Part shown: one piece after another, positions 5,134-44,198 of the stretch
How positions within the stretch are numbered: position 1 is the stretch's first letter
Layout of the letters: each line of letters starts with the position of its first letter
IMG/VR virus record: IMGVR_UViG_2740892273_000003
Direction: 5' to 3' (one strand)
DNA from: a virus
Taxonomy: Duplodnaviria; Heunggongvirae; Uroviricota; Caudoviricetes
Length of the DNA stretch: 44,348 bases
Notes under the pieces: model-generated
Databases searched by the model: none
What the model was told of the DNA's origin: nothing
The model's input: only the letters and a program-made list of their open reading frames with translations
Position numbers and translations under genes: made by a program

Positions 5134-5155
5134 ATTTATTGGGGTTATAAATATT

Positions 5156-9723: not shown

Positions 9724-9728
9724 GGGAT

Positions 9729-10427
9729 TTACTGCGAAAGTTTGTTAATGGAAAGGAAGCCGCCAAAGTTGCCGACGTTATTGCGAAACTTACAGCCACT
9801 CAGGCATTTGCTGCATTTATCCTTCGTGATGTCGGACGTTGGCTGGTCATATTCATCCGCGACCGCCGGACCGTGATAACCGCACTCATCGCCGCGATAG
9901 GTCCAGGTGCAGGTGTTGGCCAGCATGATACGTCCCGGAAAAACAGCGCCATCTGTTTCCGTCGGCGTGGACAGTACAAAAGAGGCACTCACCGCGCTCA
10001 GTTCGCTGCACTGCTCAATGCGCCAGCGGCTGATCACCTCCTGCTCCGGATCGGCGTCACTGTTTCCGTTGACGAAGTTCACCGCATCCAGAAAACGGGC
10101 GTAAACCTTACGCCGGACCACCGTTCCGCCGACCAGACTCTGTAGATCTTCCGCCATCCCGGTGACCATACCGTACAGGTTAGAAACCATCAGCGTGGGG
10201 CGCGTACTGGTGCCTTTGCCATTCAGTTCAAAACCACTCCCCTGAATGGGATACGGCTGATACTGTCGCCCCTGCCAGGTGACCGGCTCACCTTTTTCGT
10301 TCTGCTCATTACAGAAAAAATAACGTTCTCCACCGACCTCTGTCAGATCGATTTCCCAGAGCACCACGCTGGCCGACTGCTCCGCACGGGTGCATTCATT
10401 CAGTGTTTCCTGCCGGATATCCTGCAT
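9729..10427 (-). CDS. L: Tail tip protein L (232 aa)
   Basis: Length identical to lambda L; Cys-rich C-terminus; gene order M-L-K-I-J. Confidence 0.8.
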   Translation of the reverse strand: MQDIRQETLNECTRAEQSASVVLWEIDLTEVGGERYFFCNEQNEKGEPVTWQGRQYQPYPIQGSGFELNGKGTSTRPTLMVSNLYGMVTGMAEDLQSLVGGTVVRRKVYARFLDAVNFVNGNSDADPEQEVISRWRIEQCSELSAVSASFVLSTPTETDGAVFPGRIMLANTCTWTYRGDECGYHGPAVADEYDQPTSDITKDKCSKCLSGCKFRNNVGNFGGFLSINKLSQ

Positions 10428-10756
10428 CAGTTCACCACCTGTTCAAACTCTGCGCTGAACTCAACACGCAGCATACTGACCCGCGACGACCATTTTGCGC
10501 AGGTCACCTTTATCTGCCGCCACTCATAAGGCGGCGTCCACAGAAAGGCTTTCCAGCCCCCGTGCTCTTCCAGAAACGACTCCAGTACCATGGCCTCCTC
10601 ACGGGGGACAGAAAGCGTCACGCTGTACGTTTTCAGGTTGGCATTCAGCCCGGCAGGCGCTCGCTGGGAATAGCCATCACCAAAGCGCACCTTTCTTACA
10701 GAAGGGGCCGAAGCCACATCCATACCGGGTTTCACTTTCCAGCGGAAGGTTTTCAT
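10427..10756 (-). CDS. M: Tail tip protein M (109 aa)
   Basis: Length identical to lambda M; follows the tape measure gene. Confidence 0.8.
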   Translation of the reverse strand: MKTFRWKVKPGMDVASAPSVRKVRFGDGYSQRAPAGLNANLKTYSVTLSVPREEAMVLESFLEEHGGWKAFLWTPPYEWRQIKVTCAKWSSRVSMLRVEFSAEFEQVVN

Positions 10757-26232: not shown

Positions 26233-27354
26233 TTACTCAAATAACTTTTTCACTTCATCAACTGTCTGAAGATAACGTTCACCCTCAATCTCAATACCGA
26301 TTGCCTGACGACCTAACTTCAGCGCGGCTTTAATAGTAGAGCCTGATCCCATAAAGAAATCGGCAACGATATCTCCGGGGCGGGAACTACTTTTTATAAT
26401 ATGTTCCATCATCGCTGCAGGTTTTTCACATGGGTGCTTGCCAGGATAATATTGCACAGGAGGAAACTCCCATACATCGGTATAAGGTACATCAGCAGTA
26501 ACATGAAATGGGCGGCGCAAATTTTCATACTGAGCCTTCAAATCATCATACTGCTTCTTTACTTCCTCATAACGCAATTTCAGATCGCTATAACGCTTTT
26601 CATGTTCTGAATAATCAACATTAAAAGGATATGGACACGGGACACCGAGTGAATCTGCCTTCCTGCGAAATAATTCGCATAGTTTATTAAAATCACTTAA
26701 TGATGGAAGCCGCCACTGCGAATAAGAAAACCAGTGCGAACACATCTGCTTTCCTGTTGCTGAATTAATGTCTGCGGCTGATATATCTAACTGACGGCGA
26801 GCCAGCGAAAAAGCATCAATTAGTGGAGAAAAAATATTTTTTCTTAAATCTGCACATTTTGAAGCATAACCTGACTGACCTTTAGCATAACCTGACGCGC
26901 CGTAATGCTCTGCAAATAATATTCTTTCAGTGGCAGGAAAATAAGCCCTTAAACTTTCTTTATGACAACCGCGCCACATACCACTGGGTTTAGCCCAAAT
27001 GATATGGTTCAGAACATTGAAACGGTCGCGAGTTAATAATTCAATTTTTGACGCAAGGCGAGAGCCGGTAAACATATACAGGCTGCCATTAGGGGCCAAT
27101 ATCCGCCAAAATTCTGCCAAAAATTCATCAATCCACCCCAAAAAGTCAGCATCGCTATCCCACTGGTTATCCCATGCGTTAGCCTTTACGCCGAAGTATG
27201 GTGGGTCTGTTGCAATCAAATTGACCGAGTTATCAGGGATGGTTTTGATAAATTGCAGAGAATCTGCGCAAACGAGTTGCGCGCCATGAATATTAGTGGT
27301 TTTGAACATAGCTATTATTTTTTTGCCTGGGTAAGCTAACCCGGCGATGCGCAT
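26233..27354 (-). CDS. Orphan DNA amino-methyltransferase (N6-adenine or N4-cytosine); true start may be the internal MFKTT
   Basis: DPPY motif near the N-terminus (LIATDPPYFG) and FxGxG AdoMet motif near the C-terminus (DFFMGSGST); no adjacent restriction endonuclease gene. Confidence 0.75.
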   Translation of the reverse strand: MRIAGLAYPGKKIIAMFKTTNIHGAQLVCADSLQFIKTIPDNSVNLIATDPPYFGVKANAWDNQWDSDADFLGWIDEFLAEFWRILAPNGSLYMFTGSRLASKIELLTRDRFNVLNHIIWAKPSGMWRGCHKESLRAYFPATERILFAEHYGASGYAKGQSGYASKCADLRKNIFSPLIDAFSLARRQLDISAADINSATGKQMCSHWFSYSQWRLPSLSDFNKLCELFRRKADSLGVPCPYPFNVDYSEHEKRYSDLKLRYEEVKKQYDDLKAQYENLRRPFHVTADVPYTDVWEFPPVQYYPGKHPCEKPAAMMEHIIKSSSRPGDIVADFFMGSGSTIKAALKLGRQAIGIEIEGERYLQTVDEVKKLFE

Positions 27355-31505: not shown

Positions 31506-31846
31506 ATCATGTTCAAGCGCCTGTCGTAACGACGTATTTCTCCGTCAGGTAATGACCAGATAAGGTCTGGATCAACCACTACCGATTTCTTCGGCTTTAC
31601 TCTTGATAGTTTTTTACGGGCGTTTTGCCAGTCCTTGCGTGCTTGTGCAGACAGAAATATCCCGGAGCCAGAGATATACAAATCACCGCTGGCAGCAAGC
31701 TCTCTTGATAAACGACTAACAGCACACCGGCTAATACCAGTTTCATCCGCAAGTTGCCTAACCGTTCCTCGTCCATTCAGGCGCACGAGTTCCACAATTT
31801 GTTTATTCAGTTCTTCCCTCTGTTCTGGTGTAAAAGCCTTTGCCAT
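31427..31846 (-). CDS. HTH DNA-binding protein (139 aa)
   Basis: Helix-turn-helix-like segment VRQLADETGISRCAVSRLSRELAASG. Confidence 0.5.
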   Translation of the reverse strand: MAKAFTPEQREELNKQIVELVRLNGRGTVRQLADETGISRCAVSRLSRELAASGDLYISGSGIFLSAQARKDWQNARKKLSRVKPKKSVVVDPDLIWSLPDGEIRRYDRRLNMICHDCRKSEVMQRVLAFYQGNFQEVA

Positions 31847-32445
31847 TACGATTCTCCTTGCCCTTTTACAAGACGGGAGAAAATTGCGGATACATATTTA
31901 GCCTGATGAATAGCATCAGCCAGGGCATTGTGTCGTTCGCCATCAAATGGCATATCTTTTTTAGGATTAAAACCAATAAACTGACCAAGATTAACGATTG
32001 TTCGAACATCCTGATCATTAAAATATTCCCACGGACAGGCTAAGCCAACGCGCTCATAAGCACCGCGTAAAATTACATTATCGAACGTTGCTCCATTTCC
32101 CCATACTTTCAACTTTTTTAAATTACATGCATGGCAAGTAATAAAGTGTGATAATTCAAAAAGTGCATCCTTAATATCAAGGGCATCATTAGTACAAATA
32201 GCGGCTCTGGCTTCCTTGCTCTGTTTCAACCACCATAAAATGGTATCACCATCGGCGATACCACCATTCAACATCGAGCTTCTGAGATTCACTGGCACAT
32301 AAAAGGTAGGACCTAATTCCTCACTTTCTGGAGAAAAAAACACTGCCCCGATAGAAACAATTGCAGCACATGTATTAGTACCCATTGTTTCAAGGTCAAT
32401 CATTACATCAGACCGTTTCCTGTCGTAAATAATCTGATTAGTCAC
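31846..32445 (-). CDS. DEDD-type 3'-5' exonuclease (199 aa)
   Basis: N-terminal MIDLETMG (Exo I motif) and C-terminal H...ALADA (Exo III-like motif). Confidence 0.65.
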   Translation of the reverse strand: MTNQIIYDRKRSDVMIDLETMGTNTCAAIVSIGAVFFSPESEELGPTFYVPVNLRSSMLNGGIADGDTILWWLKQSKEARAAICTNDALDIKDALFELSHFITCHACNLKKLKVWGNGATFDNVILRGAYERVGLACPWEYFNDQDVRTIVNLGQFIGFNPKKDMPFDGERHNALADAIHQAKYVSAIFSRLVKGQGES

Positions 32446-32468
32446 GAATAATTATCCTCAACGTTTAT

Positions 32469-32672
32469 CTATACCCAAAACTTCTGTTGATATGTTCTGG
32501 ATGGTTTTGGCGCTCTTTCTGATTCAGGTAAATGAACATAAACGCAATATCCATCACCTAAAAAATCAGAACGAACAACCAGAACTTTCTTACCACGCCG
32601 CCGATAAGTATCTGAAAGACGCTCTGCTTCATCATGCGTCATCGGCCCCTGCTTAAATGGCGTTATTTTCAT
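32469..32672 (-). CDS. Hypothetical small protein (about 67 aa from MKITPF)
   Basis: The track ORF starts inside a centromere-like palindrome; the internal ATG gives a 67-aa product. Confidence 0.4.
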   Translation of the reverse strand: MKITPFKQGPMTHDEAERLSDTYRRRGKKVLVVRSDFLGDGYCVYVHLPESERAPKPSRTYQQKFWV

Positions 32673-32973
32673 TTTCTTGTGCGACCACGGTCGCACCCTC
32701 TCTGATTTCCAAGTAACGCTTAATCCAAAGATTTTCTATATGCTTATTACCTGGCTGATTTGATAAATACCAATCGGCAATTACAGACTGCTTATTACTA
32801 TCTGGTCGTGTCCTGTAACCACAAGTTGGACACCAGATAACATATTCATTTCTTACCCCCGAATACCTTAATTCTGGCTTCGACGGTTTCCTGAACATAA
32901 CTTGTTTACAAAGGCAGAATGGCACTTCCTGCCCGATGGCGTTTGATGATTTCACTGCGCTTCTCCGCCGCAT
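32653..32973 (-). CDS. Hypothetical protein with zinc-ribbon-like motifs (106 aa as given)
   Basis: CxC...CxxC spacing (FCLCK ... WCPTCGY); start uncertain (internal MFRKP also possible). Confidence 0.4.
   Translation of the reverse strand: MRRRSAVKSSNAIGQEVPFCLCKQVMFRKPSKPELRYSGVRNEYVIWCPTCGYRTRPDSNKQSVIADWYLSNQPGNKHIENLWIKRYLEIREGATVVAQENENNAI
32680..32695. repeat. sopC-like centromere palindrome copy 4 (TGCGACCACGGTCGCA)
   Basis: Same 16-bp palindrome in the early-right operon, at the junction of two small ORFs. Confidence 0.6.
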
Positions 32974-33616
32974 TTAATAATGCAGTTCGATTTAAGCTCA
33001 GACATCGCGACTTAATTAAAAGCCAGCGTTCTTTATAATCTTGTCTCCAGCTATCAATAGATATATTCAGTAGAAAACTCAGATGCCTGTCCTGTTCTCT
33101 CTCATCAACTGCCTCAGCACACGTAAGTTCTGACTTAACCTGCTGTGCCGCGTAATAAATCAATTTTCTCATGGCTTTTTTCGTGGAGGCCTTCATTTTT
33201 TTAAACCCGCCACCCGAATGCGCAACCAGAAAATCAAGCCATAACCACTGACAAACAATCACATCATTGTTGTAGTCAGGCTTGCATCCGTAGCAATAAT
33301 AAAGCCAGGCTGATTCCTCGTTATTCAACTGACCAATAGCCCTGCGCCAGCTGGCGCTCTGAAAATCAATATCAGTGAGCAACATTGATGATTGTTTAAA
33401 TGTTTTGCCCTGGTGGAATCTAACCGGCTCAGCAGGAACAGACACTTCGTATGAGTTATCATCACCTACACTGATTGACCGGACTGGTTTATTGTTAAAG
33501 CGTCCTGATCTGCCTAGACGCATCTGCTCAAGCTGGACCTCTAGGATGCCACGCTGGCGATAATGAATATCAGCCAATGCCGTGGAGACGCAGCTGCGTA
33601 TATACTCAAGCTCCAC
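32906..33616 (-). CDS. Hypothetical protein (236 aa) translationally coupled to cro; possible late regulator, function not established
   Basis: ORF overlapping the cro 3' end; contains a CxxC pair (YYCYGC); no family recognised by eye. Confidence 0.45.
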   Translation of the reverse strand: MELEYIRSCVSTALADIHYRQRGILEVQLEQMRLGRSGRFNNKPVRSISVGDDNSYEVSVPAEPVRFHQGKTFKQSSMLLTDIDFQSASWRRAIGQLNNEESAWLYYCYGCKPDYNNDVIVCQWLWLDFLVAHSGGGFKKMKASTKKAMRKLIYYAAQQVKSELTCAEAVDEREQDRHLSFLLNISIDSWRQDYKERWLLIKSRCLSLNRTALLNAAEKRSEIIKRHRAGSAILPL

Positions 33617-33918: not shown

Positions 33919-34515
33919 ATGAAAACACGAGGCGAACGACTGAAAGCACGCCGTTTAGAGATGAAGCTGACGTTGCGAGAAGTTGCTGAGGCTGTCGATA
34001 TCTCTATTGCAGGCGTCCAAAACTTAGAACGTGGCGACGTAATGCCGTCACTGGAGATAGGTATTGCCCTGGCTAAATGCTTACGCAAGCCAGTGCATTG
34101 GGTGCTGTATGGGACAGAATATGACCCTGATCGCATTCCTGTTATTGGCACAACTGAAAGTGGACCTGATGAAGAGTGGAAGCCAGGACAGGTTCCAAAT
34201 ACTGAGCGATTCCTGCCATTCATCAGCCAGCGCAATACTGTTTATGCGTTAACTATCAGCAATCTGGCGCAGGGAAACTATCAGCCTGGCGATTTTCTCC
34301 TGGTCGATTCTGCGCTGGAACTGGTCCCCGGCGAGGATGTTCTGGTTCGTGATACTGCAGGAAATATCACCATCCAGCGCCTGGCCCGTTTTGATGATGA
34401 AAATTACTATCTGGACGGAACAAATTCACAACGCGCTATCTTCAGGAAAAGCGATCTTGAATTTGTTCACCAAATAGTCGGAACGATCAAATCATTCATG
34501 GTTGAGGGTAGATGA
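33919..34515 (+). CDS. cB: Prophage repressor, cB/cI-type (HTH_XRE N-terminal domain plus LexA/S24-like C-terminal domain that appears to lack the catalytic Lys)
   Basis: N-terminal HTH LREVAEAVDISIAGVQNLERG; the C-terminal domain aligns by eye to the cI/LexA peptidase fold (PGDFLLVD) but has QRLAR where the catalytic Lys is expected. Confidence 0.75.
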   Translation: MKTRGERLKARRLEMKLTLREVAEAVDISIAGVQNLERGDVMPSLEIGIALAKCLRKPVHWVLYGTEYDPDRIPVIGTTESGPDEEWKPGQVPNTERFLPFISQRNTVYALTISNLAQGNYQPGDFLLVDSALELVPGEDVLVRDTAGNITIQRLARFDDENYYLDGTNSQRAIFRKSDLEFVHQIVGTIKSFMVEGR

Positions 34516-34616
34516 CTTAATACGGGGTTTATTGTTTGCTGTAAATCTGGTTTAATGCAGAGCATATGTTCTGTGGGTTGACTCAGGTTACAGCAGCAGA
34601 AAAAAGACGAAAAAAA

Positions 34617-34645
34617 ACCCGAGTCGGCAAACTCGGGTCCTTTTC
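34617..34645 (+). terminator. Intrinsic terminator between cB and repA
   Basis: A-tract, ACCCGAGT-cggcaa-ACTCGGGT, then CCTTTTC. Confidence 0.6.
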
Positions 34646-34760
34646 AGGAAGCAGCCACAGTAACGCGACGGATTCCGTCAATTCAAGATGCGTTTATTGT
34701 GGCTGCTCCTGCGGATTTTTTCAACCCGAAAAAACATAATTCGCATGGAATGGCTAAAAA

Positions 34761-37700
34761 ATGACATTAAACGATTTCTATGCGGATCGCTTTGGCAGCG
34801 ATCCGTTCTCGCTAATTGAAGCAGCACGGGATGAACTAACCGAGCTGGCACAGATGGCTGGTATCAACTGGTCTGCCTGTTCCGACAACATCCAACTCAA
34901 CCCTCGCGGGGGTGTTGAGCGTTACTCTTCATACAATAAAACATCCCCAGAAGCTCTCGAAAAGAGCCTCAAAGGACGCGTAGAAATTTACTCCCGGCTG
35001 GAACACAGCAAAGGGATTGATTACCCGTTCATTAACTTCGTCCATAAAGGCAGCGATGCTGGCTCATGGAGCGGTTTCTCCTTCCTGTTTTCTGAATATC
35101 GCCGTGAGCAACAACGGAATAATGCGACCGTGGTCGCACAACCGGAAGAAGAACGGGCAAGAATAGAACGTCAGGCCGAAGCACGTCGTCGCCGTGAAGA
35201 ACAAAAACGAATTAATGACCTGAAAAACAACCAAATGGACCATGAACGTTTGCTGGGATGGCTGGCATTCCACAGTGCTTGGGAACATGCTCCTGCAGAA
35301 GACGGCTCATGGCCATATGCGATTAAAAAAGGTATTCGTGACGTTTTTAATTCGTGTGATGTGCGTCGCGTGACCAGTCACGACAGCGCAAAATGGAGCA
35401 GGGGGCCAACCACGTATATGGCTATCCCTCTGGCTCACCTGGACGGTCGTTACGATGGTCGTATTGTTGGTTGGCAGCGAATCGACAAACAAGGTGGAAA
35501 ATACCAGACCAGCGCCGTAACCAGCGGCGATTTCGTCGGTGCCTGCTTTGTTATCGGTGAGCTGAAAGGGGCGCAAAACATCGCTGTTACAGAAGGTTTT
35601 GCTACTGGTGCATCCATCTGGCTTGCCACGAAAAAAGATAAACGCTTTGACGCTGTGGTTGTCGCTGTATCCGCTAACAACATGGTTCATGTTGTGGAAC
35701 AACTGGTAAACATGTACCCGGCGGCAAAAATCACCTGCGCACTGGATAATGACCGGAAATCAGCTACAGAAGGAAAAGGGAATACCGGCCTGCGGACTGG
35801 CTATGAAATCTTATCGAAATTCAACGATGTCCGCTGCGTCTATCCAACTTTTGAAGACGATCCGCAAATGGAGTGCAGTGACTTCAACGACCTGCACAAA
35901 CTACGTGGACTTCGTGAAACAGCACGTCAACTGTTTGCAACTGCAAACCGCCTGAAAACTGGCACTGATTTGCTATCTCTGACGCTCAACCGCCTGAAGA
36001 CAATTAAGCGGGATAACCGTCGTACTTTTGCCAAAGAGCTGCTGAGAGCAGTGGATATTGGCATGCTAACCTGTCCGGTTCCTAACAGTCCGTCAGACTT
36101 ATTTAACATGTTCTGCATCGTCCTGCGTGAAATTGGGCTGGAAAATATCTATCGCGCTACGGTAAAAGACCACATTGCCCGTCGCCTGAATAAAAAGTGC
36201 CGTATTGCCCAGGCTCCGCGCTCATTCAGCGAACGAATAACTGATCCCAATAAACGTCCTCAACATATCACCTATAAGCGTTTTGAAACTTCGGTAATGA
36301 CCGATGACGTCCTGAAGTATGTGCAATCACTACAGGGGATAGTCATCGTTCGTGCTGGTATGGGTTCCGGCAAATCTACTGGATTGTTACGACCTTTAAT
36401 GCATAGCTCAGAACGTGGTATCTCTGTTGCTCACCGTGTTTCCCTTATTGGTGGCCTGTGGGAAATGATGACAGAAGGAAAAGGTGTAAAAGCCGATATC
36501 CTGCACTATCAGGACCCTGGCTATCAGGAAATGGCTCCATACGCCAGTAAACTGACCATCTGCATAAACTCGATTGTTAAAAACTGCTGGCAACCATTGA
36601 TGCGCCAGCACGACTATTTTGGCTTTGACGAGGCCACGCAAGGGCTACGTGCCGTTCTTTCCGGTCGGGCTATGGAAAACCCGGTGGCTGTATTCAATAC
36701 GTTAATTGACGCGCTGGCCAGAACGGAACAACACCCAATAATGGTGGATGCTGATGCGAACGATCTGCTGGTTGACCTGGCTGAACTGGCTATGAAACGC
36801 CGTGAAGAACTAGGTTTACCGGCATGGCTGCAGATCCACGTAATTGAATTACCTGTTGATGTTCGCAACCGCGAAACAGGTGAGCCAATCCGGGTTTTTT
36901 ATACAGAAAAAGATCGCATTATGACCGAGGTGGTGAAAGCTGTATCGAATGGCGAAAAAATCATGTTGGCCACCGACAGCTCCACCTTTGCAGAAGATGT
37001 GACCGCCACCCTGAGAATGCATTTTCCTGGTAAGAAATTTCTGTGTGTAAACCAGAAAAACAAACCAGAGCCAGAAGTTGAAGCATTTACCAATCAACCG
37101 AAAAAGATGGTCAAAAAATACGACGGCCTGATTTATAGCCCGTCTATTTCATCCGGTGTGTCGATTGAGCAAAAACATTTTGACCGTCATTTCGGCATGT
37201 TCTGTGGTGAAGTTGTACCCAGCGACGCAGTGCAAATGCTACGCCGCGACCGTACAGCAAAAGAATTTATTATCGGCTTTGATAAAGCTCGCGCAAAACG
37301 TGAAACTGACCCGCAAAAAATAGAACGAGCATTCGCCCAGGCATTGCTTGCTACCGCAGGCATGAACGGTGAACTGACGGATGTCGTTTTCGATGGCGAC
37401 CGTATATCAATGGGGGTGGCCAATACCGACTTTACCAGGATGAAAATTAAAGCAGCCGCAATTGAAGCGTCTGCGCGTAACGACTACGCCAGCAACATGA
37501 TCTGCATCATGCACAGCGACGGTTATAAGGTATCGCCGCTGGCCACCGATTATGCTGCGAATGATATCGGTAAAGATCTGCGTAAAGAAGCGCGGGATAT
37601 TGTGTGGGAACAGACACTGGATCTGCATCTCAATACAGAAACTCCACAAGAATCAGAGCGTGAAGAACTGCTAAAAAAACGCGCGCTGACGCTTGAAGAA

Positions 37701-38756
37701 CAAGCAAAACTTGTCCGCTGGGATATTGAGAACGAACTGAAACTACCGGTTGAAGAAGGCACGCTGAAATTCTATTTCGATGGTGCTCGAGACAAAGTTC
37801 GCCGCTATGAAACAATGCTTTTAGATGAGGTAACAGCTCGTCGTTACGACCGGGAAGAAGCAGCCATCAATTTTACCTACGCATACCGTCAGGCGGGACA
37901 GTGGCAATATTTTGTAGTGACCGCGATGACTCGCGAGCAGGCTGATGATGTCTTTAAAACTAAATTCCCTGGAATAATCGACTACAAGGTAAAAGCTACT
38001 CCTACTGTTGAAGTCGGGGCGCGCGGTTTCTATGCGCTTAAATCAGCAACTCTCCGGCAGTACTTTATCGACTGCGGTATCAACCCTGAGACTATGACCG
38101 GCGAGGCGACTCAGGAGCGTCTCAAATTCGCTCGAGATAACCTCATGACAGCCGAACGCCGTGACCTGTTGAATAACGTTCTGCACATTGGTGGTTTTAT
38201 GACGCCAAAAGGGAAGCCTAAAGTGCCGGAAGCGTTGTTTAAAAACATTTGCGACTCTCTTGGCCTTAAAACAGGTAAACGTCGCGGCAGAGACGGCGAT
38301 AAGCGTCCAACCTTGCGTTTTGTTGAGCCTGAATCAGCGGCATTTATGCTGGATATTCTTGTTCAGCGTCAGAAAGATGGCCTAACCCTAAAAACGCGTA
38401 AAGCCGAGAAGACAGCCATCGAAATGGATCGCGATTTGGATCTCAATATATATATGGATGATAAAACGCGATCCACAAACGAGCAGGTTCAAAACGCCCC
38501 TCATTCAGTAATTTCTGAGGCTTTGGCCGTATTGCCGGTGGCTGTTCCTGAGTCCTGGGCGATGAGTGCGCTTTCCGGTGAGGAGCTGGCCACTATGTCA
38601 TCATGGTCATCAGCCAGCATAGCTATGACGTTTGCATCTCTGTATCTCACAGAGTTCATGGATCACTTGTCCAGCAATGAATTGCGGCGGTTACGAGAAT
38701 ACATTACCGGGAATAGCTCATGCAGCTACGAAGAGCAGGGCGCTTTCTATGGGTAA
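34761..38756 (+). CDS. repA: Replication protein RepA, multidomain primase-helicase (1331 aa, N15 RepA-like)
   Basis: Toprim-like primase motifs (NIAVTEGFATGASI; CALDNDRK), Walker A (GMGSGKST) and Walker B (YFGFDEAT) in the central region; size close to the ~1.3 kaa N15 RepA as recalled. Confidence 0.8.
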   Translation: MTLNDFYADRFGSDPFSLIEAARDELTELAQMAGINWSACSDNIQLNPRGGVERYSSYNKTSPEALEKSLKGRVEIYSRLEHSKGIDYPFINFVHKGSDAGSWSGFSFLFSEYRREQQRNNATVVAQPEEERARIERQAEARRRREEQKRINDLKNNQMDHERLLGWLAFHSAWEHAPAEDGSWPYAIKKGIRDVFNSCDVRRVTSHDSAKWSRGPTTYMAIPLAHLDGRYDGRIVGWQRIDKQGGKYQTSAVTSGDFVGACFVIGELKGAQNIAVTEGFATGASIWLATKKDKRFDAVVVAVSANNMVHVVEQLVNMYPAAKITCALDNDRKSATEGKGNTGLRTGYEILSKFNDVRCVYPTFEDDPQMECSDFNDLHKLRGLRETARQLFATANRLKTGTDLLSLTLNRLKTIKRDNRRTFAKELLRAVDIGMLTCPVPNSPSDLFNMFCIVLREIGLENIYRATVKDHIARRLNKKCRIAQAPRSFSERITDPNKRPQHITYKRFETSVMTDDVLKYVQSLQGIVIVRAGMGSGKSTGLLRPLMHSSERGISVAHRVSLIGGLWEMMTEGKGVKADILHYQDPGYQEMAPYASKLTICINSIVKNCWQPLMRQHDYFGFDEATQGLRAVLSGRAMENPVAVFNTLIDALARTEQHPIMVDADANDLLVDLAELAMKRREELGLPAWLQIHVIELPVDVRNRETGEPIRVFYTEKDRIMTEVVKAVSNGEKIMLATDSSTFAEDVTATLRMHFPGKKFLCVNQKNKPEPEVEAFTNQPKKMVKKYDGLIYSPSISSGVSIEQKHFDRHFGMFCGEVVPSDAVQMLRRDRTAKEFIIGFDKARAKRETDPQKIERAFAQALLATAGMNGELTDVVFDGDRISMGVANTDFTRMKIKAAAIEASARNDYASNMICIMHSDGYKVSPLATDYAANDIGKDLRKEARDIVWEQTLDLHLNTETPQESEREELLKKRALTLEEQAKLVRWDIENELKLPVEEGTLKFYFDGARDKVRRYETMLLDEVTARRYDREEAAINFTYAYRQAGQWQYFVVTAMTREQADDVFKTKFPGIIDYKVKATPTVEVGARGFYALKSATLRQYFIDCGINPETMTGEATQERLKFARDNLMTAERRDLLNNVLHIGGFMTPKGKPKVPEALFKNICDSLGLKTGKRRGRDGDKRPTLRFVEPESAAFMLDILVQRQKDGLTLKTRKAEKTAIEMDRDLDLNIYMDDKTRSTNEQVQNAPHSVISEALAVLPVAVPESWAMSALSGEELATMSSWSSASIAMTFASLYLTEFMDHLSSNELRRLREYITGNSSCSYEEQGAFYG
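35123..35138. repeat. sopC-like centromere palindrome copy 5 (TGCGACCGTGGTCGCA), inside repA
   Basis: Same palindrome embedded in the repA coding sequence (encodes NATVVAQ). Confidence 0.6.
38424..38476. other. Candidate replication origin inside the repA 3' region
   Basis: Imperfect inverted repeats GGATCGCGATTT / AAACGCGATCC containing GATC sites, flanking an ATATATATAT tract. Confidence 0.35.
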
Positions 38757-38944: not shown

Positions 38945-39271
38945 ATGTCTACTACTGCATTTTTGGACAAACTTGATTACCGTCAGCTGCAGTTCTGCCG
39001 GGATGAATGCGATCGACGCATTAAGGCTATCCAGGAGGAAGAAAAAAAGGTCGCCTGGGCTGTAACAGATCGTGGCCTTATCTTTGGCTGGTTCCGTACG
39101 GAGGATTACCTGAAAGCAGTGGAATTATTGGCGCGTAAGGCTGCTGAGCGTTGGGAACGAGCCGACAAGGAAAACCCGGAGACGAAGTATGAACTGAATC
39201 TCTACATCGAGGGCAACCGTCTACCATTGTCAGAGTATAACGCTTTGTTTGCTGATGGTGAGTGGGGTTAA
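38945..39271 (+). CDS. Hypothetical protein (108 aa)
   Basis: ORF in an operon downstream of repA. Confidence 0.45.
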   Translation: MSTTAFLDKLDYRQLQFCRDECDRRIKAIQEEEKKVAWAVTDRGLIFGWFRTEDYLKAVELLARKAAERWERADKENPETKYELNLYIEGNRLPLSEYNALFADGEWG

Positions 39272-39273
39272 AA

Positions 39274-39669
39274 ATGGCTGTTCAATCATACAAATACGAA
39301 TCCCCTTTGGATAAGGGATACATTCGTATCAAGTTAAGTCGTTCTCAACATAAGGCTATTTTTAAGGTAAGGAAAATTCGCATATTGGATGCGTATGCGT
39401 ATTACTACAACGGTGAAAATGTTGTTGTTGAACACTTTCTTGCACGATGGTTTGTAGCTCTGATTTTTGTCCCTCTCCTGTTAATTGGTACTTTTGTGGA
39501 TGGTTTTCCTAGTACATGGCGGGAGATAAAGAAAGGCCTATTCCCGCGTAAGTACGGCAGATTTTCGCAAGATAGCTGGCGAGTTATACCTGGTAAACAT
39601 TCTGTGGATGAGCAGCCGATTGTTGATTACTGGTTGAAGCGTATGGCTGATGCTAAAAAAGTTGATTGA
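39274..39669 (+). CDS. Hypothetical membrane protein (about 131 aa), AT-rich
   Basis: One central TM segment WFVALIFVPLLLIGTFV; GC content visibly lower than flanking genes. Confidence 0.45.
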   Translation: MAVQSYKYESPLDKGYIRIKLSRSQHKAIFKVRKIRILDAYAYYYNGENVVVEHFLARWFVALIFVPLLLIGTFVDGFPSTWREIKKGLFPRKYGRFSQDSWRVIPGKHSVDEQPIVDYWLKRMADAKKVD

Positions 39670-39758
39670 ATAGTGATGACTGTTCAAGTTAAACCGTTCT
39701 CGGCATATTTTATTTAATGGAATAACATATTATTAATCAAATAGGTTAAGTTAATATT

Positions 39759-40571
39759 ATGCGTAACAAAAAAACAACAGCTTTATTACTCTCTATCTTG
39801 TTATTATCTGGATGCACTTATCAATATGATAATAAGGCATCAACGGACGTTGAGTATAAATTCGAAAAAGAAAAAAGAGTACCTATCAACTCTGTTGGTG
39901 ATTTTAGCAGCAAAATACTCACAGGTAAGGAATTTAATAGAATTATTGCATCAAAGATAGATGATGGTTCATGGCGTGGATATGTCGTTCACTCATTAAC
40001 ATACGCGCCATACAACAACGTTTTAACATCTCAAGGTTTGTCTATCCCTAGAAGTATCACATACTCAGGAACATATCTTAACCGTGATTTTGTTGAGAAT
40101 AGCGGTAGTGATAGCGTGATAACATCTCGAGATATGTCTGGATGGTATGGTTTTCATGTCGATTCCTCTGAAATAACAAAGCATGGAAGCTATGTTGGTG
40201 CTAATGCTTTTGGAATATCTGCTGATGTAGAAGTGTTAAATACTTTAGGTGCCGAAATTATCTTTGGTAGTACACAAATAAATGAAGGGAACCCTGAAAC
40301 AATATGGGCAGATATTGATATAAAAGGACAAATACCAAAAGATGTTAATGTAAAAGACCTTAGAATTGAATATTTAGCAAAGATAAATGGGTTAAGCAGT
40401 AATCATATTGATATAACATCACCTACTATTTTTAACCCGTCAGATATGAGCCATAAAACTCAGGTTTTTATGGGTGAGTTATTAGCCGCGCGCCTAATAA
40501 ATATTAAAACGGGAGAAATTTATCCAGTACAGCTAGAGTGGGTGTTCCGTTCGCGTGAGGCTTTCTTATAA
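39759..40571 (+). CDS. Lipoprotein (270 aa), AT-rich moron-like gene
   Basis: Signal peptide with lipobox LLLSGC; markedly AT-rich coding sequence; followed by a perfect hairpin GAACAAT-aac-ATTGTTC. Confidence 0.55.
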   Translation: MRNKKTTALLLSILLLSGCTYQYDNKASTDVEYKFEKEKRVPINSVGDFSSKILTGKEFNRIIASKIDDGSWRGYVVHSLTYAPYNNVLTSQGLSIPRSITYSGTYLNRDFVENSGSDSVITSRDMSGWYGFHVDSSEITKHGSYVGANAFGISADVEVLNTLGAEIIFGSTQINEGNPETIWADIDIKGQIPKDVNVKDLRIEYLAKINGLSSNHIDITSPTIFNPSDMSHKTQVFMGELLAARLINIKTGEIYPVQLEWVFRSREAFL

Positions 40572-40632
40572 CGGAACAATAACATTGTTCATGTTCTGAT
40601 CGTTTGTTCAAGCAAACTATAAAAACACCTGT

Positions 40633-40652
40633 CCCCGTGACTGGTCACGGGG
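40633..40652. repeat. 20-bp palindrome CCCCGTGAC-TG-GTCACGGGG upstream of the antirepressor locus (GTGAC-N2-GTCAC copy 2)
   Basis: Perfect 9-bp arms with a 2-bp centre, too tight for an RNA hairpin, so more likely a protein-binding site; shares a 14-bp core with the 29299-29312 site. Confidence 0.5.
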
Positions 40653-40699
40653 TAAAATGTCTTTGCAAATTATTGACGTGTGCGTCGTTTTGGAGGTAA

Positions 40700-40786
40700 A
40701 GTCACCTCGCTGCGGTAAATCCCGCAGTCGGGACTTCGCAATCCTGGCAAAACGAAGCGCACAACACGCGCCAGCGTGTTTTTTTG
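40700..40786 (+). ncRNA. Candidate small regulatory RNA (P1 c4 / N15 CA-like) preceding icd-ant
   Basis: Promoter-like TTGACG (~40673) with a weak -10; hairpin CTGCGG-taaatc-CCGCAG; intrinsic terminator ACACGC-gcca-GCGTGT then TTTTTTT at ~40764-40786; lies directly upstream of an icd-like gene. Confidence 0.4.
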
Positions 40787-40951
40787 TGTGTATAGACCTG
40801 CGCATATCCGAATTATGGTGGCTCAGGTGGGGCTGACTTCGGTCGGGCCGGTTTCTTCGTTTACCGGTATTGCGAACCCCGCCTGGGCTACCACCAATAA
40901 AGAGATTCGCAACTCTGGTGGTAGCACGACCAATAAAACGGAGTGCATACC

Positions 40952-41116
40952 ATGTTCAAATTCAAATTTGCGGCAGTCGTTCGCACAGACAAAAAGTCCC
41001 ACATTCATCATCTTTCCACTATCGCGTCATCTGAACGGGAAGCTCGTCGCCAGTTCGCCAGCCGGTTTGTCCTGGTATTGTCTGCCCGTATTCCGGTGCG
41101 CGAGGTGGCTGCATGA
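40952..41116 (+). CDS. icd: Icd-like cell division inhibitor (54 aa)
   Basis: MFKFKFAAVVRTDKK...EREARRQFASRFVLVLSARIPVREV fits the pattern recalled for P1-type Icd-like proteins; GGAG RBS. Confidence 0.55.
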   Translation: MFKFKFAAVVRTDKKSHIHHLSTIASSEREARRQFASRFVLVLSARIPVREVAA

Positions 41117-41346
41117 ATCAGGTAAAAATGAACACTGTTGGCCTGCTGGAATCGTTGGATGAACGTCTGGCTCAGGTCTATGCGCTCGTATCATCAGCCC
41201 ATCGGACAGTCTCCAGTTGTGAGGCGTCGATTTACCTCTCAGAGGCTGGAAAACTTCTGCAGATTGCGTGTGAGTTAACGCATGAAGCACAGGGATATTC
41301 TGCGTCTCTCTCGTCGCACTTGCTGCGCGATAAGGAGGCTGAATGA
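41113..41346 (+). CDS. Hypothetical protein (77 aa) in the icd-ant operon
   Basis: ATGA overlaps with both the upstream and downstream genes. Confidence 0.5.
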   Translation: MNQVKMNTVGLLESLDERLAQVYALVSSAHRTVSSCEASIYLSEAGKLLQIACELTHEAQGYSASLSSHLLRDKEAE

Positions 41347-42125
41347 GCGCGTTAGCAGTCTTTTCCTTTCAGGAAGAGCATCAGGTTCGTGTAGTGATGA
41401 TTAACGGTGAGCCGTGGTTTGTGGCTAAGGATGTATGTGATGCTTTAAGACTCGTTAATTCCCGGAAGGCGCTAATGTCTCTGGATGAGGATGAAAAGGG
41501 TGTAACTTTAAGTTACACCCCTGGCGGAGAGCAAAAGCTAAATATTATTTCAGAGTCAGGTCTATACACCCTGATCCTCCGCTGCCGTGACGCGGTGAAG
41601 CAAGGCACAACAGCTTGGCGGTTTCGCAAATGGGTAACGAACGAAGTCTTGCCCTCTATTCGCAAAAATGGAGAGTACGTTTACATCGAGCCTGAGCCAA
41701 TGCGAGCAGCGGAGCCGTTGAACTGGAGGCAGAAAGAGTATCTGCGAGGGCTGATTAACGATATAGCACAAAGTTTTCAGTACCGAAATGCCTGGATTAG
41801 CGGTGTATGGTTAGCTTTGCGTCGGGCGTGTCGTAATCCATCCCCGAACCCCATAACGGTTGATGATTTGCCAGCAATTACGGCAGAACTGCGCCGGATT
41901 TTGACGGCTGCTGAGTCGGCATTGGGGAACATGCGCACGTATGAACGAGAGTTGTTGCGTGATGTTGTTCGTGGGGGTAGGCGGAGTATGTCGTGTGGTG
42001 ATTTACCCATCACCGATATTAACTCTGATCTGGAAAAGGCGTTACCCGCGCATTTTGAACTGGCAGTTCAAAAACTTGAGCAGTTATCCGCGCAGCTAAA
42101 GCCAGCAGAAATCACCAATAAATAG
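41343..42125 (+). CDS. ant: Antirepressor with Bro-N domain (260 aa)
   Basis: N-terminal FSFQEEHQVRVVMINGEPWFVAKDVCDALRL...SESGLYTLILR...KWVTNEVLPSIRKNG matches the Bro-N domain pattern. Confidence 0.7.
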   Translation: MSALAVFSFQEEHQVRVVMINGEPWFVAKDVCDALRLVNSRKALMSLDEDEKGVTLSYTPGGEQKLNIISESGLYTLILRCRDAVKQGTTAWRFRKWVTNEVLPSIRKNGEYVYIEPEPMRAAEPLNWRQKEYLRGLINDIAQSFQYRNAWISGVWLALRRACRNPSPNPITVDDLPAITAELRRILTAAESALGNMRTYERELLRDVVRGGRRSMSCGDLPITDINSDLEKALPAHFELAVQKLEQLSAQLKPAEITNK

Positions 42126-42296: not shown

Positions 42297-44198
42297 TTAA
42301 CCGAAATATGTCAGCCATGCTAACTGCATTGCTGACATGGGGCTGTTTGCACTGCCGGACCACGCATAATTCTGGCCATTATAATGAAACTCAACAACGT
42401 ATGAGCCATCACCAATATTTCTCACCGGCTTAAATACCGGCTTAGATACAGGCGAAGAAGGTGCAGGCGGTTGCTGTTCTTCTACGCTATCTTCCTCTTC
42501 CTCTTCCTCTTCCTCTATCTCAATTTCGTCGTCATCCAGATCGTCATCCTCTGATAATTCATCCGCCAGTTCAGGTATTGCTTCCAGTTCTTCTTCGTCA
42601 GGCATAACGATTTCTGGAGTATCTATTTTCAGTTGCCATTGTCCGTTTTCGCCAACAAATTGCCCCAGAGCATCAGCAGCAAATTCCAGGTATCGACTAA
42701 TCATTGTTGGGCTAAATTTGAACGCTCTTAGAGTGCTGTTCGTGATTTTTATAGAGGGGTCCTGCTCTACCAGCTGCTTAACTGTGTTATGCAGACGAAC
42801 CCCGGCATCTCCTCTGGCGAATCCAGGCATTTCGTCATCAAGCTGCTGCAATGCTTCCAGCCTGGTATTTTCGTTTCCAGTATTTGGCCTCCATGTCTTT
42901 GAGAAGTTGGCCAGCTTGAATTGCTTATAGTGTAATTGAGTGTTTTCATCGTCATGGCCTAAAATTTCCATAAAGAAAACATCTTCATCTACGTTTTTCC
43001 AACGAGGATCTACGCGGAAAAACATTTCATACGCAATACGGGCATAAATAGCACGACTATCTTTATAAACACGGCGGTCATCTTTGAAAAATGATTTAAC
43101 CCACGGGTTAAAAGCCTTTGCTAATATGGCATTAATACGTCCGTTTTCAGAGCGTGTGTCGTTATCTCCATAACCTTTAACGACATCATCAAAATCAGAT
43201 GCTGCTGGGCATGAGCGAAGTACATTTATTAAATAAACAAATGTTTTTGCTTCGCATAATGTATATATTTTTCTGGTTATATCATCAGAAGTTCTTTTTT
43301 TAGCTTGGCCTAAAAAATCAACGGTATACTTACCAGAAACAGTAAATGTACCTTGATACATAATCTCAATCATTCGTCTTCCTGACAATGCAGCAAGTGC
43401 AAATGCCAAAGGAGCCATACCTGAACGAGTGTTTAGATTATTTAATGTAGCAGGGCTATTTATAATATCGTAAATAGCTTGCATATATTTAGGGTAATCA
43501 ATGACCACCACGTTACGTTTCTTATTGTGCAGAACGTCCGCCCATCGTTGCTGGATAGATGCACGTTCGGCAGGGCTTAGTTGAAGATGATAGAGAATCT
43601 CATGGTTAACTTTTAGCTGATTCAACTCCTCAAGTAAGGCAGATCCTTGCTGTAGTAATTTATATAAATAATCGCGCTTATCTTTCCAGTTATCGCTGGT
43701 TAAATCAGAAATGGCGAATTGCCACTCTTTATATTTATTTGATAATTTCAATAACTTATTATGACTTTTGTTATCGCCAATTCTGATATTAGATAAATCT
43801 TCTGATAGAGGGAGAATTAATTTTAATTTTGCCTGTAAAGCTGACATTCTCTGGCGAATATCGGCAGCAGGTAGAGAAAGCCATGACAATAGCTCCTCAT
43901 TATATAAAGGATACTTTTCAGATAGGCGATGTATATTTTTTTCAAAGCTATGATGAAGTTTATCATCAAACCGTTTTCTGGCCCTGCTCATATAGGCATT
44001 GAATGTGTTGGCTGTAATTCTTTTTTCTAATCCTTTCCCCCTAAACTTTCGCTTGTCATTAAATAATGCATTTTTAAATTTTAATGCAACAGCCTTTATT
44101 TTTTTTGTTTTCTCCCCTTGAGGACGGTCAGAGTTATCTATTGACTCAACATCGCTAACAAGTGAGTTTATTAATTCACCGATTTTTACTTTGCTCAT
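42297..44198 (-). CDS. telN: Protelomerase (telomere resolvase), TelN-like (633 aa)
   Basis: N-terminus MSKVKIGELIN..., internal blocks such as RITANTFNAYMSRARKRFDD and WRPN..ENTRL, and a C-terminal acidic tract match the N15 TelN protein as recalled; length is close to the 631-aa N15 protein. Confidence 0.8.
   Translation of the reverse strand: MSKVKIGELINSLVSDVESIDNSDRPQGEKTKKIKAVALKFKNALFNDKRKFRGKGLEKRITANTFNAYMSRARKRFDDKLHHSFEKNIHRLSEKYPLYNEELLSWLSLPAADIRQRMSALQAKLKLILPLSEDLSNIRIGDNKSHNKLLKLSNKYKEWQFAISDLTSDNWKDKRDYLYKLLQQGSALLEELNQLKVNHEILYHLQLSPAERASIQQRWADVLHNKKRNVVVIDYPKYMQAIYDIINSPATLNNLNTRSGMAPLAFALAALSGRRMIEIMYQGTFTVSGKYTVDFLGQAKKRTSDDITRKIYTLCEAKTFVYLINVLRSCPAASDFDDVVKGYGDNDTRSENGRINAILAKAFNPWVKSFFKDDRRVYKDSRAIYARIAYEMFFRVDPRWKNVDEDVFFMEILGHDDENTQLHYKQFKLANFSKTWRPNTGNENTRLEALQQLDDEMPGFARGDAGVRLHNTVKQLVEQDPSIKITNSTLRAFKFSPTMISRYLEFAADALGQFVGENGQWQLKIDTPEIVMPDEEELEAIPELADELSEDDDLDDDEIEIEEEEEEEEDSVEEQQPPAPSSPVSKPVFKPVRNIGDGSYVVEFHYNGQNYAWSGSANSPMSAMQLAWLTYFG

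What the first reader, a model, noticed from the sequence alone, without database searches (positions are those of the whole stretch)
39274..40590. AT-rich moron between repA and the antirepressor locus: membrane protein plus 270-aa lipoprotein
The two genes are clearly lower in GC than their neighbours. The second has a lipobox signal peptide and ends at a perfect hairpin. Phage-encoded envelope lipoproteins in such positions often act in superinfection exclusion or receptor masking; no family was recognised by eye, so it is a candidate for an uncharacterised exclusion or defence function.
Basis: inference. Interest (0 to 1): 0.55.

Follow-up and report, generated by a model that had tools for sequence, protein, structure and literature searches.

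The report
Orphan lipoprotein cassette in telomere-phage cargo slot
An N15-like linear plasmid-prophage carries, in the same swap-in slot where related Klebsiella phages keep bacteriocin genes, a single AT-rich gene for an exported lipoprotein of an unnamed family that recurs in phage tail regions and on tiny plasmids and most likely helps keep other phages out, although its function has not been tested.

The parts
39685..40593 (.). Exchangeable cargo cassette (909 bp): AT-rich leader plus lipoprotein gene plus a short tail
   Evidence: blastn against PhiR46_1 and YDC107_1: flanks are 99% and 98%/89% identical, and this segment is replaced by 322 bp or 251 bp of unrelated DNA. In PLSDB, 7 N15-like plasmids carry it, and 18 of the listed records have both flanks without it (62% coverage rows).
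39759..40571 (+). 270-aa lipoprotein gene. Signal peptide is aa 1-18 and the lipidated Cys19 codon is 39813-39815. The +2 residue is Thr, which predicts outer-membrane sorting. A disordered tether of about 18 residues precedes a beta-rich domain from about residue 38.
   Evidence: ORF; lipobox by direct reading; Cys conserved; AF2 pLDDT 85, low confidence for residues 20-37; 35.3% GC, GC3 25.8%; no Pfam/NCBIfam/PADLOC hit; weak phrog_13753 match, which 15 of 18 relatives also match.
39670..39758 (+). AT-rich leader (24.7% GC) upstream of the lipoprotein gene; no strong sigma-70 match on the + strand and a weak Shine-Dalgarno
40543..40578 (+).
39274..39669 (+). ORF A, 131 aa, one predicted TM helix (FLARWFVALIFVPLLLIGTFV), phrog_15458. 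A separate, semi-conserved module, not part of the swapped cassette.
38945..39271 (+). ORF108 (phrog_10878), the conserved left anchor of the cargo slot; 65% identical to the gene left of ImmA/TelA in Klebsiella phage NAR688
40594..40951 (+). Conserved backbone right of the slot. It contains a GC-rich hairpin (40633-40652), a promoter-like site (40673-40702), a c4-a1b1 target (40696-40750), an isrK-like element with a U-tract terminator (40709-40784) and a C4 antisense RNA (40811-40898). Together these form the control region of the icd/ant operon.
40952..42125 (+). icd-like gene (40952-41116), 77-aa anti-repressor-family gene (41113-41346) and Bro-N antirepressor (41343-42125)
   Evidence: RefSeq annotation of the identical record mapped by an offset of 33669; phrog_6301/10889
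33919..38756 (+). Prophage repressor (33919-34515) and RepA (34761-38756), on the same strand as the cargo genes and upstream of them

Best explanation
The thing to explain is one gene, not two. It is a self-contained, horizontally acquired cassette (39685-40593) encoding a lipid-anchored exported protein, dropped into the cargo hot-spot of an N15-like telomere phage-plasmid. That hot-spot lies between the repA-ORF108(-ORF A) block and the C4-RNA-controlled icd/ant operon.

Proposed mechanism, all inferred:
1. The gene is transcribed in the lysogen, either by read-through from the repressor/repA transcription unit on the same strand or from a weak promoter in its AT-rich leader.
2. The product is exported, lipidated at Cys19 and sorted by Lol to the outer membrane, because the +2 residue is Thr rather than Asp.
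3. There, its roughly 230-residue beta-rich domain, on a tether of about 18 residues, acts as an entry barrier to incoming phages. It could do this by binding the periplasmic face of an outer-membrane receptor and making it unusable, as Llp, Cor and Rtp45 do. Alternatively it could intercept the tape-measure/tail-tip conduit of lambda-like siphophages in the periplasm, which is analogous to HK97 gp15.
4. This protects the lysogen or plasmid host from superinfection and, in lytic growth, protects progeny from debris.

ORF A is an unrelated small membrane protein of the phage early region, with unknown role.

Shown: cassette boundaries, composition, lipobox, family membership, genomic contexts and the lack of known relatives. 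Inferred: expression, localisation, target and phenotype.
For: Cassette behaviour:
- Precise replacement by other small exported-protein genes in genomes 99% identical on both sides.
- One allele is knocked out by IS2 in E. albertii, so the gene is dispensable for the element.

Slot:
- In Klebsiella phage NAR688 the same interval holds ImmA (Colicin_im) and TelA (colicin pore domain). The interval runs from the ORF108 homologue (65% identity) to the conserved icd/ant leader.
- PMC12042878 places the telocin locus between RepA and the protelomerase and detects TelA and ImmA in the lysogen proteome.
- The repressor, repA and the cargo genes share one strand.

Family:
- Only 5 clusters among 5.8 billion proteins, and 20 representatives among 1.84 billion.
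- The subfamilies are linked by hhalign at 99.8% probability, E 1.7e-28, over 253 columns.
- All but one member have a lipobox and none has Asp at +2.
- A distant subfamily has two extra invariant Cys, which fits an oxidising compartment.

Contexts of relatives:
- Four mutually diverged members (about 30-36% identity) sit between the tail assembly chaperone G/T and the tape measure gene (L035 comes from the same sample). This is the position of the HK97 gp15 superinfection-exclusion moron (PMC3594210).
- Others sit after the tape measure gene, between M and L, and between K and I beside Lom and two Ant genes.
- One sits directly downstream of an S24 CI-type repressor on the same strand.
- Two other N15-like lineages carry one in the same slot.
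- Others are on MOB plasmids of about 3.7-4.4 kb, on a 2.4-kb contig with only a Rep-like gene, and on 2.7-kb ColE1 plasmids with only rop. That last cluster is seen on more than 600 contigs.
- In all 11 other loci checked, the gene is 5-12 GC points below its surroundings.

A signal-peptide lipoprotein cannot be a cytoplasmically assembled virion part. No residue typical of a catalytic centre is conserved: only Y145, N149, A150 and G152 are invariant. This favours a binding protein with a variable N-terminal half.
Against: - There is no experimental or homology evidence of any function.
- There is no hit to PADLOC, Cor (phrog_1119 E 0.14, signal peptide only), or TraT/Bor (no Pfam hit in any of 18 members).
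- Known receptor-masking lipoproteins are about 6-8 kDa (PMC12685063), whereas this mature protein has 252 residues.
- Among N15-like plasmids the cassette does not track the J/tail-fibre allele. The best tail match is a non-carrier, and carriers have divergent tails. It is therefore not obviously paired with the phage's own receptor-binding protein.
- No convincing own promoter or terminator was found, so expression in the lysogen is assumed.
- The conserved G/T|TMP synteny could mean a lytic-cycle role rather than lysogen protection.
Confidence: 0.4

Rival explanations
1. Protection against bacteriocins or other interbacterial weapons. The lipoprotein would be an orphan immunity factor, or a receptor or translocator mask against colicin/telocin-type toxins or periplasm-acting effectors. 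It would be carried by phage-plasmids and ColE1-type plasmids for competitive benefit.
For: It occupies the same slot as the telocin:immunity cassettes of Klebsiella telomere phages. Relatives ride on ColE1/MOB small plasmids, the classical colicin-plasmid backbones. Receptor masking by Cor also protects against colicin M (PMC3594210), so this rival overlaps with the best explanation.
Against: No toxin gene accompanies it in any context examined. No member matches a Pfam immunity family. Most relatives sit inside phage tail modules, which is not where immunity genes are usually found.
Confidence: 0.2
2. A lysogenic-conversion surface factor in the manner of Bor, Lom or TraT. It would alter envelope properties such as serum resistance, adhesion or envelope-stress tolerance, rather than blocking phages.
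For: It is an outer-membrane lipoprotein moron. One homologue lies next to a Lom-like gene. The window itself carries a Lom-like gene. Many carriers are clinical Enterobacteriaceae.
Against: There is no homology to Bor, TraT or Lom. The family also occurs in Xanthomonas, Tatumella, Serratia and Providencia prophages, which argues against a function specific to mammalian hosts.
Confidence: 0.12
3. One reading: ORF A (membrane protein) and the lipoprotein form a two-component envelope system that was acquired together and works as a pair.
For: The genes are adjacent, on the same strand, and both below backbone GC. In other N15-like lineages a small TM protein also precedes the homologue.
Against: ORF A is 99% identical in PhiR46_1 and YDC107_1, where different cargo follows it. 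The upstream proteins of homologues are unrelated to each other. Plasmid and tail-module copies have no such partner. ORF A relatives occur in unrelated phages without the lipoprotein.
Confidence: 0.08
4. A lytic-cycle helper with no benefit to the lysogen, for example preventing progeny from adsorbing to debris or modulating the envelope at lysis. Its presence in the N15-like slot and on plasmids would then be secondary hitch-hiking or neutral cargo.
For: Synteny inside late tail operons is conserved across diverged phages. No clear own promoter was found in the window.
Against: It lies in the early/lysogenic arm of the N15-like element and after a CI repressor. It is the sole cargo of widespread 2.7-kb plasmids that have no lytic cycle.
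Confidence: 0.1

Closest known systems
Cor (phi80/N15/HK022) and Llp (T5) / Rtp45 (Rtp) superinfection-exclusion lipoproteins
   Same: These are phage-encoded, signal peptidase II-processed outer-membrane lipoproteins. Each is encoded as a single accessory gene, often near tail genes. They bind the periplasmic side of an OM receptor (FhuA, LptDE) and abolish RBP binding (PMC9586334, PMC12685063, PMC3594210).
   Different: There is no sequence relationship: phrog_1119 scores E 0.14 and only over the signal peptide. The known proteins are about 6-8 kDa, whereas this one has 252 mature residues in a beta-rich fold with no solved-structure match. The target is unknown, and no linkage to the J/fibre allele is seen among N15-like elements.
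HK97 gp15 moron (superinfection exclusion at DNA entry)
   Same: [quoted passage not shown] One of them lies in an HK97-like module (Phage_HK97_TLTM) (PMC3594210). Both are low-GC single-gene additions encoding envelope proteins.
   Different: gp15 is a small inner-membrane YebO-like protein, not a lipoprotein, and there is no homology. The window copy is not in the tail module.
Telocin:immunity cassettes of Klebsiella telomere phages (TelA/ImmA of NAR688)
   Same: They occupy the same genomic slot, from the ORF108 homologue to the icd/ant leader, between RepA and the protelomerase. They are interchangeable cargo that is expressed in the lysogen.
   Different: The content is unrelated. They comprise a colicin-type pore-former plus a four-helix inner-membrane immunity protein, rather than a single lipoprotein. 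The window gene has no colicin or immunity domain.
phrog_13753 (PHROGs family of unknown function)
   Same: This is the only library family with a reproducible match. 15 of 18 relatives hit it, with a best E of 3.7e-10. The window protein hits at E 1.3e-3 over residues 135-259.
   Different: The family has no annotation, and the window protein's own match is weak and covers only the C-terminal half.
TraT and lambda Bor (plasmid/phage OM lipoproteins for surface exclusion and serum resistance)
   Same: They are OM lipoproteins carried by mobile elements as accessory genes. TraT is of similar size (recalled from memory, not checked here).
   Different: No Pfam match in any of 18 family members at E <= 0.1. 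The presence of TraT and Bor models in Pfam is assumed from memory.

Membership tests
Bacterial lipoprotein (signal peptidase II substrate) | Positively charged n-region, hydrophobic h-region, lipobox [LVI][ASTVI][GAS]C within the first ~35 residues | tested here: met
   MRNKK-TTALLLSILL-LSG-C19. The Cys column is conserved in at least 90% of 18 relatives. The Pfam LPAM_1 match is only sub-threshold.
Bacterial lipoprotein (signal peptidase II substrate) | Outer-membrane sorting: no Asp at position +2 | tested here: met
   The +2 residue is Thr. None of the lipobox-bearing relatives has Asp at +2. Actual localisation cannot be tested here.
Moron (Hendrix/Juhala sense) | Present in one genome and absent between the same flanking genes in close relatives | tested here: met
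   39685-40593 is replaced in PhiR46_1 and YDC107_1. In PLSDB there are 7 carriers and 18 listed non-carriers with both flanks.
Moron (Hendrix/Juhala sense) | Base composition different from neighbours | tested here: met
   35.3% versus about 49-50% GC, in the lowest 1.4% of windows. The same offset is seen in all 11 other loci checked.
Moron (Hendrix/Juhala sense) | Own promoter and own terminator | tested here: inconclusive
   No + strand sigma-70 match in the leader at the scan's thresholds. The hairpin at the stop codon lacks a U-tract, z = -1.3. Homologues in L012 and L023 are followed by canonical terminators.
Moron (Hendrix/Juhala sense) | Expression from the repressed prophage | not testable with these tools
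   Only indirect evidence: same strand as the repressor and repA, and cargo of the same slot is detected in NAR688 lysogens (PMC12042878).
Cor superinfection exclusion protein (phrog_1119) | Sequence match to the family profile beyond the signal peptide | tested here: not met
   E 0.14, residues 4-48 only. One of 18 relatives matches at E 0.0095.
Llp/Rtp45-type SE lipoproteins | Small (~6-8 kDa) mature lipoprotein that binds the periplasmic face of the phage's OM receptor | tested here: not met
   Size is not met: 252 mature residues, versus ~6 kDa for Rtp45 and a 'small' Llp (PMC12685063). Receptor binding cannot be tested here.
TraT / Lambda_Bor (Pfam) | Match to the Pfam family model | tested here: not met
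   No such hit for the window protein at E <= 1, nor for any of 18 relatives at E <= 0.1. Presence of TraT and Bor models in Pfam is assumed from memory.
Known anti-phage defence systems (PADLOC-DB 2.0) | Match to any PADLOC model | tested here: not met
   0 families for both ORFs at E <= 1.
Telocin:immunity cassette | Colicin-type toxin domain plus cognate immunity protein | tested here: not met
   NAR688 ORFs hit Colicin and Colicin_im. The window ORFs hit neither. Only the slot is shared.
phrog_13753-related lipoprotein family (unnamed) | Full-length homology to the family: Y-x-G-x-NAFG motif, IEYLA, PT..P, and the LLAARLIN-K-G..YP C-terminal block | tested here: met
   Motifs are present. 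hhalign of A1 versus A3 gives 99.8% probability, E 1.7e-28. hmmsearch E-values range from 2e-18 to 7e-4 for the distant members.

The most novel reading that the evidence does not exclude
The family is a previously unrecognised class of large (~28 kDa) outer-membrane lipoproteins with a new fold. They would block genome entry of lambda-like siphophages after adsorption, by intercepting the tape-measure/tail-tip conduit in the periplasm. This would explain why most members are kept next to tape measure genes. The family would spread as a one-gene, plug-in immunity cassette between prophage tail modules, telomere phage-plasmid cargo slots and minimal ColE1 plasmids.
Probability: 0.2. Interest if true: 0.75.

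Novelty: new variant of a known kind. Interest (0 to 1): 0.55.

Why it matters
If the protein is an entry-blocking factor, it would add a mechanistically and structurally new member to the short list of envelope-level superinfection-exclusion proteins of Gram-negative bacteria. Several consequences would follow:
- It would give a function to phrog_13753 and to the only cargo gene of very common 2.7-kb 'cryptic' ColE1 plasmids of Salmonella, E. coli and Klebsiella.
- It would show that the telomere-phage cargo slot known for bacteriocins in Klebsiella is a general hot-spot for host-protective envelope genes in Escherichia.
- Carriage of such cassettes could narrow the host range of therapeutic siphophages.

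The experiment is simple, because it involves one gene.

Tried and rejected
- Family libraries. Pfam, NCBIfam and PADLOC gave nothing for the window protein beyond signal-peptide noise. Pfam scans of all 18 relatives gave only scattered single hits.
- First AF2 run. With six close sequences the model was unusable, at pLDDT 50.
- Second word-indexed search. Using the wide alignment added only one protein.
- The search for related loci. It found nothing in 185,579 species-representative genomes with the close alignment.
- Conserved upstream partner. A two-gene system was tested by all-against-all BLAST of neighbours and rejected.
- The 'Spackle' label. This label on the alternative cargo in PhiR46_1 is not supported by PHROGs or Pfam, so I did not use it as evidence that the slot holds exclusion genes.
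- Linkage to the receptor-binding allele. I tested whether the cassette tracks the J/tail-fibre allele, as expected for self-receptor masking, and found no correlation.
- PKD and Ig-like hits. Matches of profile positions 194-231 to PKD repeats in a 2516-aa protein, and of 178-228 to an Ig-like protein, were judged uninformative.
- My own error. I first took the 1027-aa ORF upstream of P0005 for RepA. It is a tape measure protein.
- Frame error. My translation of the icd-like gene was one base out of frame (the correct CDS is 40952-41116), so those two 'no hit' results for it are void.
- Literature. Searches by accession numbers and keywords found no study of this protein.
Full report
What the window is. 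The 44-kb window is an N15-like linear plasmid-prophage (a 'telomere phage').
- It has a 1331-aa RepA (34761-38756, +) and a 633-aa protelomerase (42297-44198, -).
- It carries a lambda-like tail module with J, a Lom-like gene, a side tail fibre and its assembly protein.
- A prophage repressor (33919-34515, +) lies just upstream of repA on the same strand.
- The region of the finding is 100% identical to E. coli G749 plasmid pG749_3. RefSeq annotates that record as RepA (CyRepA1 family), three hypothetical proteins, an Icd-like protein, a hypothetical protein, a Bro-N protein and a protelomerase.

Checking the observation.
- Both ORFs are real and at the stated coordinates. ORF A is 39274-39669 (131 aa from the ATG). 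The lipoprotein gene is 39759-40571 (270 aa).
- GC content is 40.4% for ORF A, 24.7% for the 89-bp spacer and 35.3% for the lipoprotein gene (GC3 25.8%). The window is 50.5% overall and the flanking genes are 48.5-52%.
- Only 1.4% of all 813-bp windows are as AT-rich as the lipoprotein gene. The protelomerase gene is also AT-rich, at 39%.
- The N-terminus MRNKKTTALLLSILLLSGC is a canonical lipoprotein signal, and the Cys is conserved across relatives.
- The hairpin is a 9-bp perfect inverted repeat with an 18-nt spacer across the stop codon. It has no U-tract, folds no better than shuffled sequence (z = -1.3), was not reported by the terminator scan, and is not conserved in homologous cassettes.

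Anatomy: one cassette, not two genes.
- blastn against Escherichia phages PhiR46_1 and YDC107_1 shows 99% and 98% identity up to window 39684/39675, and again from 40594/40586 (99% and 89%).
- In between, the window has 909 bp with the lipoprotein gene. PhiR46_1 has 322 bp with a 95-aa secreted protein. YDC107_1 has 251 bp with a 74-aa protein.
- ORF A is 99% identical in both of those phages. It belongs to phrog_15458 and has relatives in unrelated Yersinia, Salmonella, Enterobacter and Proteus phages.
- The proteins upstream of the lipoprotein's homologues are unrelated to each other.
- In PLSDB, 7 N15-like plasmids of E. coli, E. albertii and E. fergusonii carry the lipoprotein cassette. 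Of the listed records, 18 have both flanks without it (62% coverage).
- Among 5,426 complete E. coli genomes, only 3 carry it, always on plasmids.
- In E. albertii p2011C-4180-1, IS2 is inserted at the 5' end of the gene. The gene is therefore dispensable for the element.

The slot.
- Immediately to the right of the cassette lies the conserved control region of the antirepressor operon. It holds a promoter-like site (40673-40702), a c4-a1b1 target, an isrK-like element ending in a U-tract terminator, and a C4 antisense RNA (82 bits). These are followed by icd, a 77-aa anti-repressor-family gene and a Bro-N gene.
- In Klebsiella phage NAR688 the homologue of ORF108 (65% identity) is followed by a 181-aa protein with a Colicin_im match and, on the other strand, a 377-aa protein with a colicin pore domain. 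The same conserved leader then follows.
- These two proteins are ImmA and TelA of PMC12042878. That paper places the telocin locus between RepA and the protelomerase, finds five interchangeable telocin cassettes there, and detects TelA and ImmA among only nine phage proteins in the lysogen proteome.
- The window's ORF A plus lipoprotein therefore occupy the established cargo hot-spot of telomere phages. Its contents are, at least in Klebsiella, expressed in the lysogen.

The protein and its family.
- There is no Pfam, NCBIfam or PADLOC match. The only library hit is a weak one to phrog_13753, a family of unknown function (E 1.3e-3).
- The word-indexed search of 5.8 billion proteins found five clusters at 53-99% identity. 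An exhaustive HMM search of 1.84 billion representatives found only 20 proteins at E <= 1e-3.
- The more distant ones are lipoproteins of 243-303 aa from Serratia, Tatumella, Providencia, Klebsiella, Salmonella, E. coli and Xanthomonas. All are annotated 'hypothetical' or 'lipoprotein'.
- 15 of 18 aligned members hit phrog_13753, with a best E of 3.7e-10.
- Homology between the window's subfamily and the distant subfamily is full-length: hhalign gives 99.8% probability, E 1.7e-28. The Xanthomonas member is linked at 97.7%, E 1.6e-12.
- Conserved features are the lipobox Cys, Y-x-G-x-NAFG, IEYLA, PT..P and LLAARLIN-K-G..YP. Only Y145, N149, A150 and G152 are invariant, so no residue typical of a catalytic centre is conserved. 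The N-terminal half is much more variable than the C-terminal half.
- A distant subfamily has two further invariant cysteines, which is consistent with a disulfide in an oxidising compartment.
- With the 18-sequence alignment, AlphaFold2 gives a confident model (pLDDT 85, pTM 0.77). It has a disordered tether (residues 20-37), one long helix and a beta-rich body with 20-residue strands.

Where relatives live. This is the most informative result. Three kinds of context recur.
(a) The same slot of other N15-like elements, at 52-59% identity: Enterobacter p53EVA-1 and metagenomic contigs.
(b) Tail modules of lambda-like or HK97-like siphophage prophages.
- Two lie just after the tape measure gene (P0008; P0005).
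- One lies between M and L.
- One, at 53% identity, lies between K and I beside a Lom-like gene and two anti-repressors.
- The G/T|TMP site is where the founding moron, HK97 gene 15, sits. gp15 is a prophage-expressed superinfection-exclusion protein that blocks DNA entry (PMC3594210).
(c) Other sites. One member lies directly after an S24 CI-type repressor on the same strand in a Xanthomonas prophage.
(d) Very small plasmids.
- MOB plasmids of about 3.7-4.4 kb in Salmonella, Enterobacter and Klebsiella.
- A 2.4-kb contig carrying only a Rep-like gene.
- 2.7-kb ColE1 plasmids carrying only rop plus a 254-aa family member. That protein's cluster is seen on more than 600 contigs.
In all 11 other loci checked, the gene is 5-12 GC points below its surroundings.

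Interpretation.
- A signal-peptide lipoprotein cannot be a cytoplasmically assembled tail part. These genes are therefore accessory envelope genes carried by temperate phages, phage-plasmids and minimal plasmids, in places typical of lysogen-expressed or late-co-expressed protective genes.
- The best-supported reading is an outer-membrane-anchored entry barrier against phages. The +2 Thr predicts outer-membrane sorting, and no family member has Asp at +2.
- Two mechanisms are possible. The first is receptor inactivation from the periplasmic side, as in Llp, Cor and Rtp45 (PMC9586334, PMC12685063). The second is interference with the tape-measure/tail-tip conduit, analogous to HK97 gp15.
- I put this at about 0.4, because nothing about function is shown. 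Three points count against it. The protein is four times larger than known masking lipoproteins. It has no homology to any exclusion or defence protein. Among N15-like plasmids the cassette does not co-vary with the J/fibre allele.

Novelty and verdict.
- The kind of thing, a moron-encoded envelope lipoprotein, is well known.
- This family is unnamed and unstudied (no literature hits). It has no relative among solved structures and an unusual distribution across three classes of mobile element.
- I rate it a new variant of a known kind, with interest 0.55. It is a well-defined, cheap-to-test candidate rather than a demonstrated new mechanism.

Noticed in passing
window 40696-40898 (+): Rfam finds a C4 antisense RNA (40811-40898, 82 bits), an isrK-like element (40709-40784, 52.8 bits versus gathering score 50) and a c4-a1b1 target (40696-40750). 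A promoter-like site lies at 40673-40702 and a U-tract terminator at 40763-40780. This looks like a P1 immI-type RNA switch controlling the icd/ant operon. RefSeq annotates an 'ash family' pseudogene over the C4 RNA.
   Followed up: partly
window 40633-40652 (+): A GC-rich 8-bp perfect stem (CCCGTGAC/GTCACGGG) lies in the conserved backbone between the cassette and the ant promoter. It folds significantly better than shuffles (z = -3.0) but has no U-tract. It could insulate the ant operon from upstream read-through.
   Followed up: partly
window 40583-40590; L001 ~4101-4108; L002 ~3669-3676; L004 downstream of 5459: The right junction of different cargo cassettes shares a TCTGATC(A/G) motif containing or flanked by TGATCA-type palindromes. 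This may be a recombination hot-spot for cassette exchange.
   Followed up: no
L034 (E. albertii p2011C-4180-1) 1240-2468: IS2 is inserted in the 5' end of the lipoprotein gene, leaving a CDS without its signal peptide. This is a natural knockout allele.
   Followed up: partly
L016 (E. coli pRHEcCUB-4, 2724 bp) 1390-2154: Minimal ColE1-type plasmids carry only rop and a 254-aa distant family member. The protein's 90% cluster is seen on more than 600 contigs in Salmonella, E. coli, Klebsiella and Enterobacter. This is a possible function for a common 'cryptic' plasmid.
   Followed up: partly
L001 (PhiR46_1) 3798-4085: The alternative cargo in the same slot is annotated 'Spackle exclusion protein', but it matches only PHROG families of unknown function and no Pfam family. 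It is a 95-aa Cys-rich secreted protein.
   Followed up: yes
window 4603-5085 (-): A Lom/Ail-family gene between J and the side tail fibre is only 160 aa and matches positions 1-159 of the 199-position PHROG profile. It may be truncated at the C-terminus.
   Followed up: no
window 31750-32900: A second low-GC patch holds an exonuclease-like gene (31846-32445, -) and a Lar-like restriction-alleviation gene (32653-32973, -), next to a Q-like antiterminator (32906-33616, -). A DNA methyltransferase lies at 26233-27354 (-).
   Followed up: no
L003 (pG749_3) 8628-12801: The RefSeq record is a 62.5-kb 'circular' plasmid with two identical protelomerase genes in inverted orientation and the cargo region present twice. 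This is most likely an assembly artefact from reading through the hairpin telomere of a linear plasmid.
   Followed up: no
L012 3153-3569: In one tail-module locus, a second, unrelated 138-aa lipoprotein (phrog_2320) sits between the tape measure gene and the family member. This gives two exported lipoproteins in tandem.
   Followed up: no
window 840-6400 versus PLSDB: The tail-fibre/J region is mosaic. The best matches are N15-like plasmids that lack the lipoprotein cassette, while carriers of the cassette have divergent fibres. The early and late arms therefore recombine freely.
   Followed up: partly
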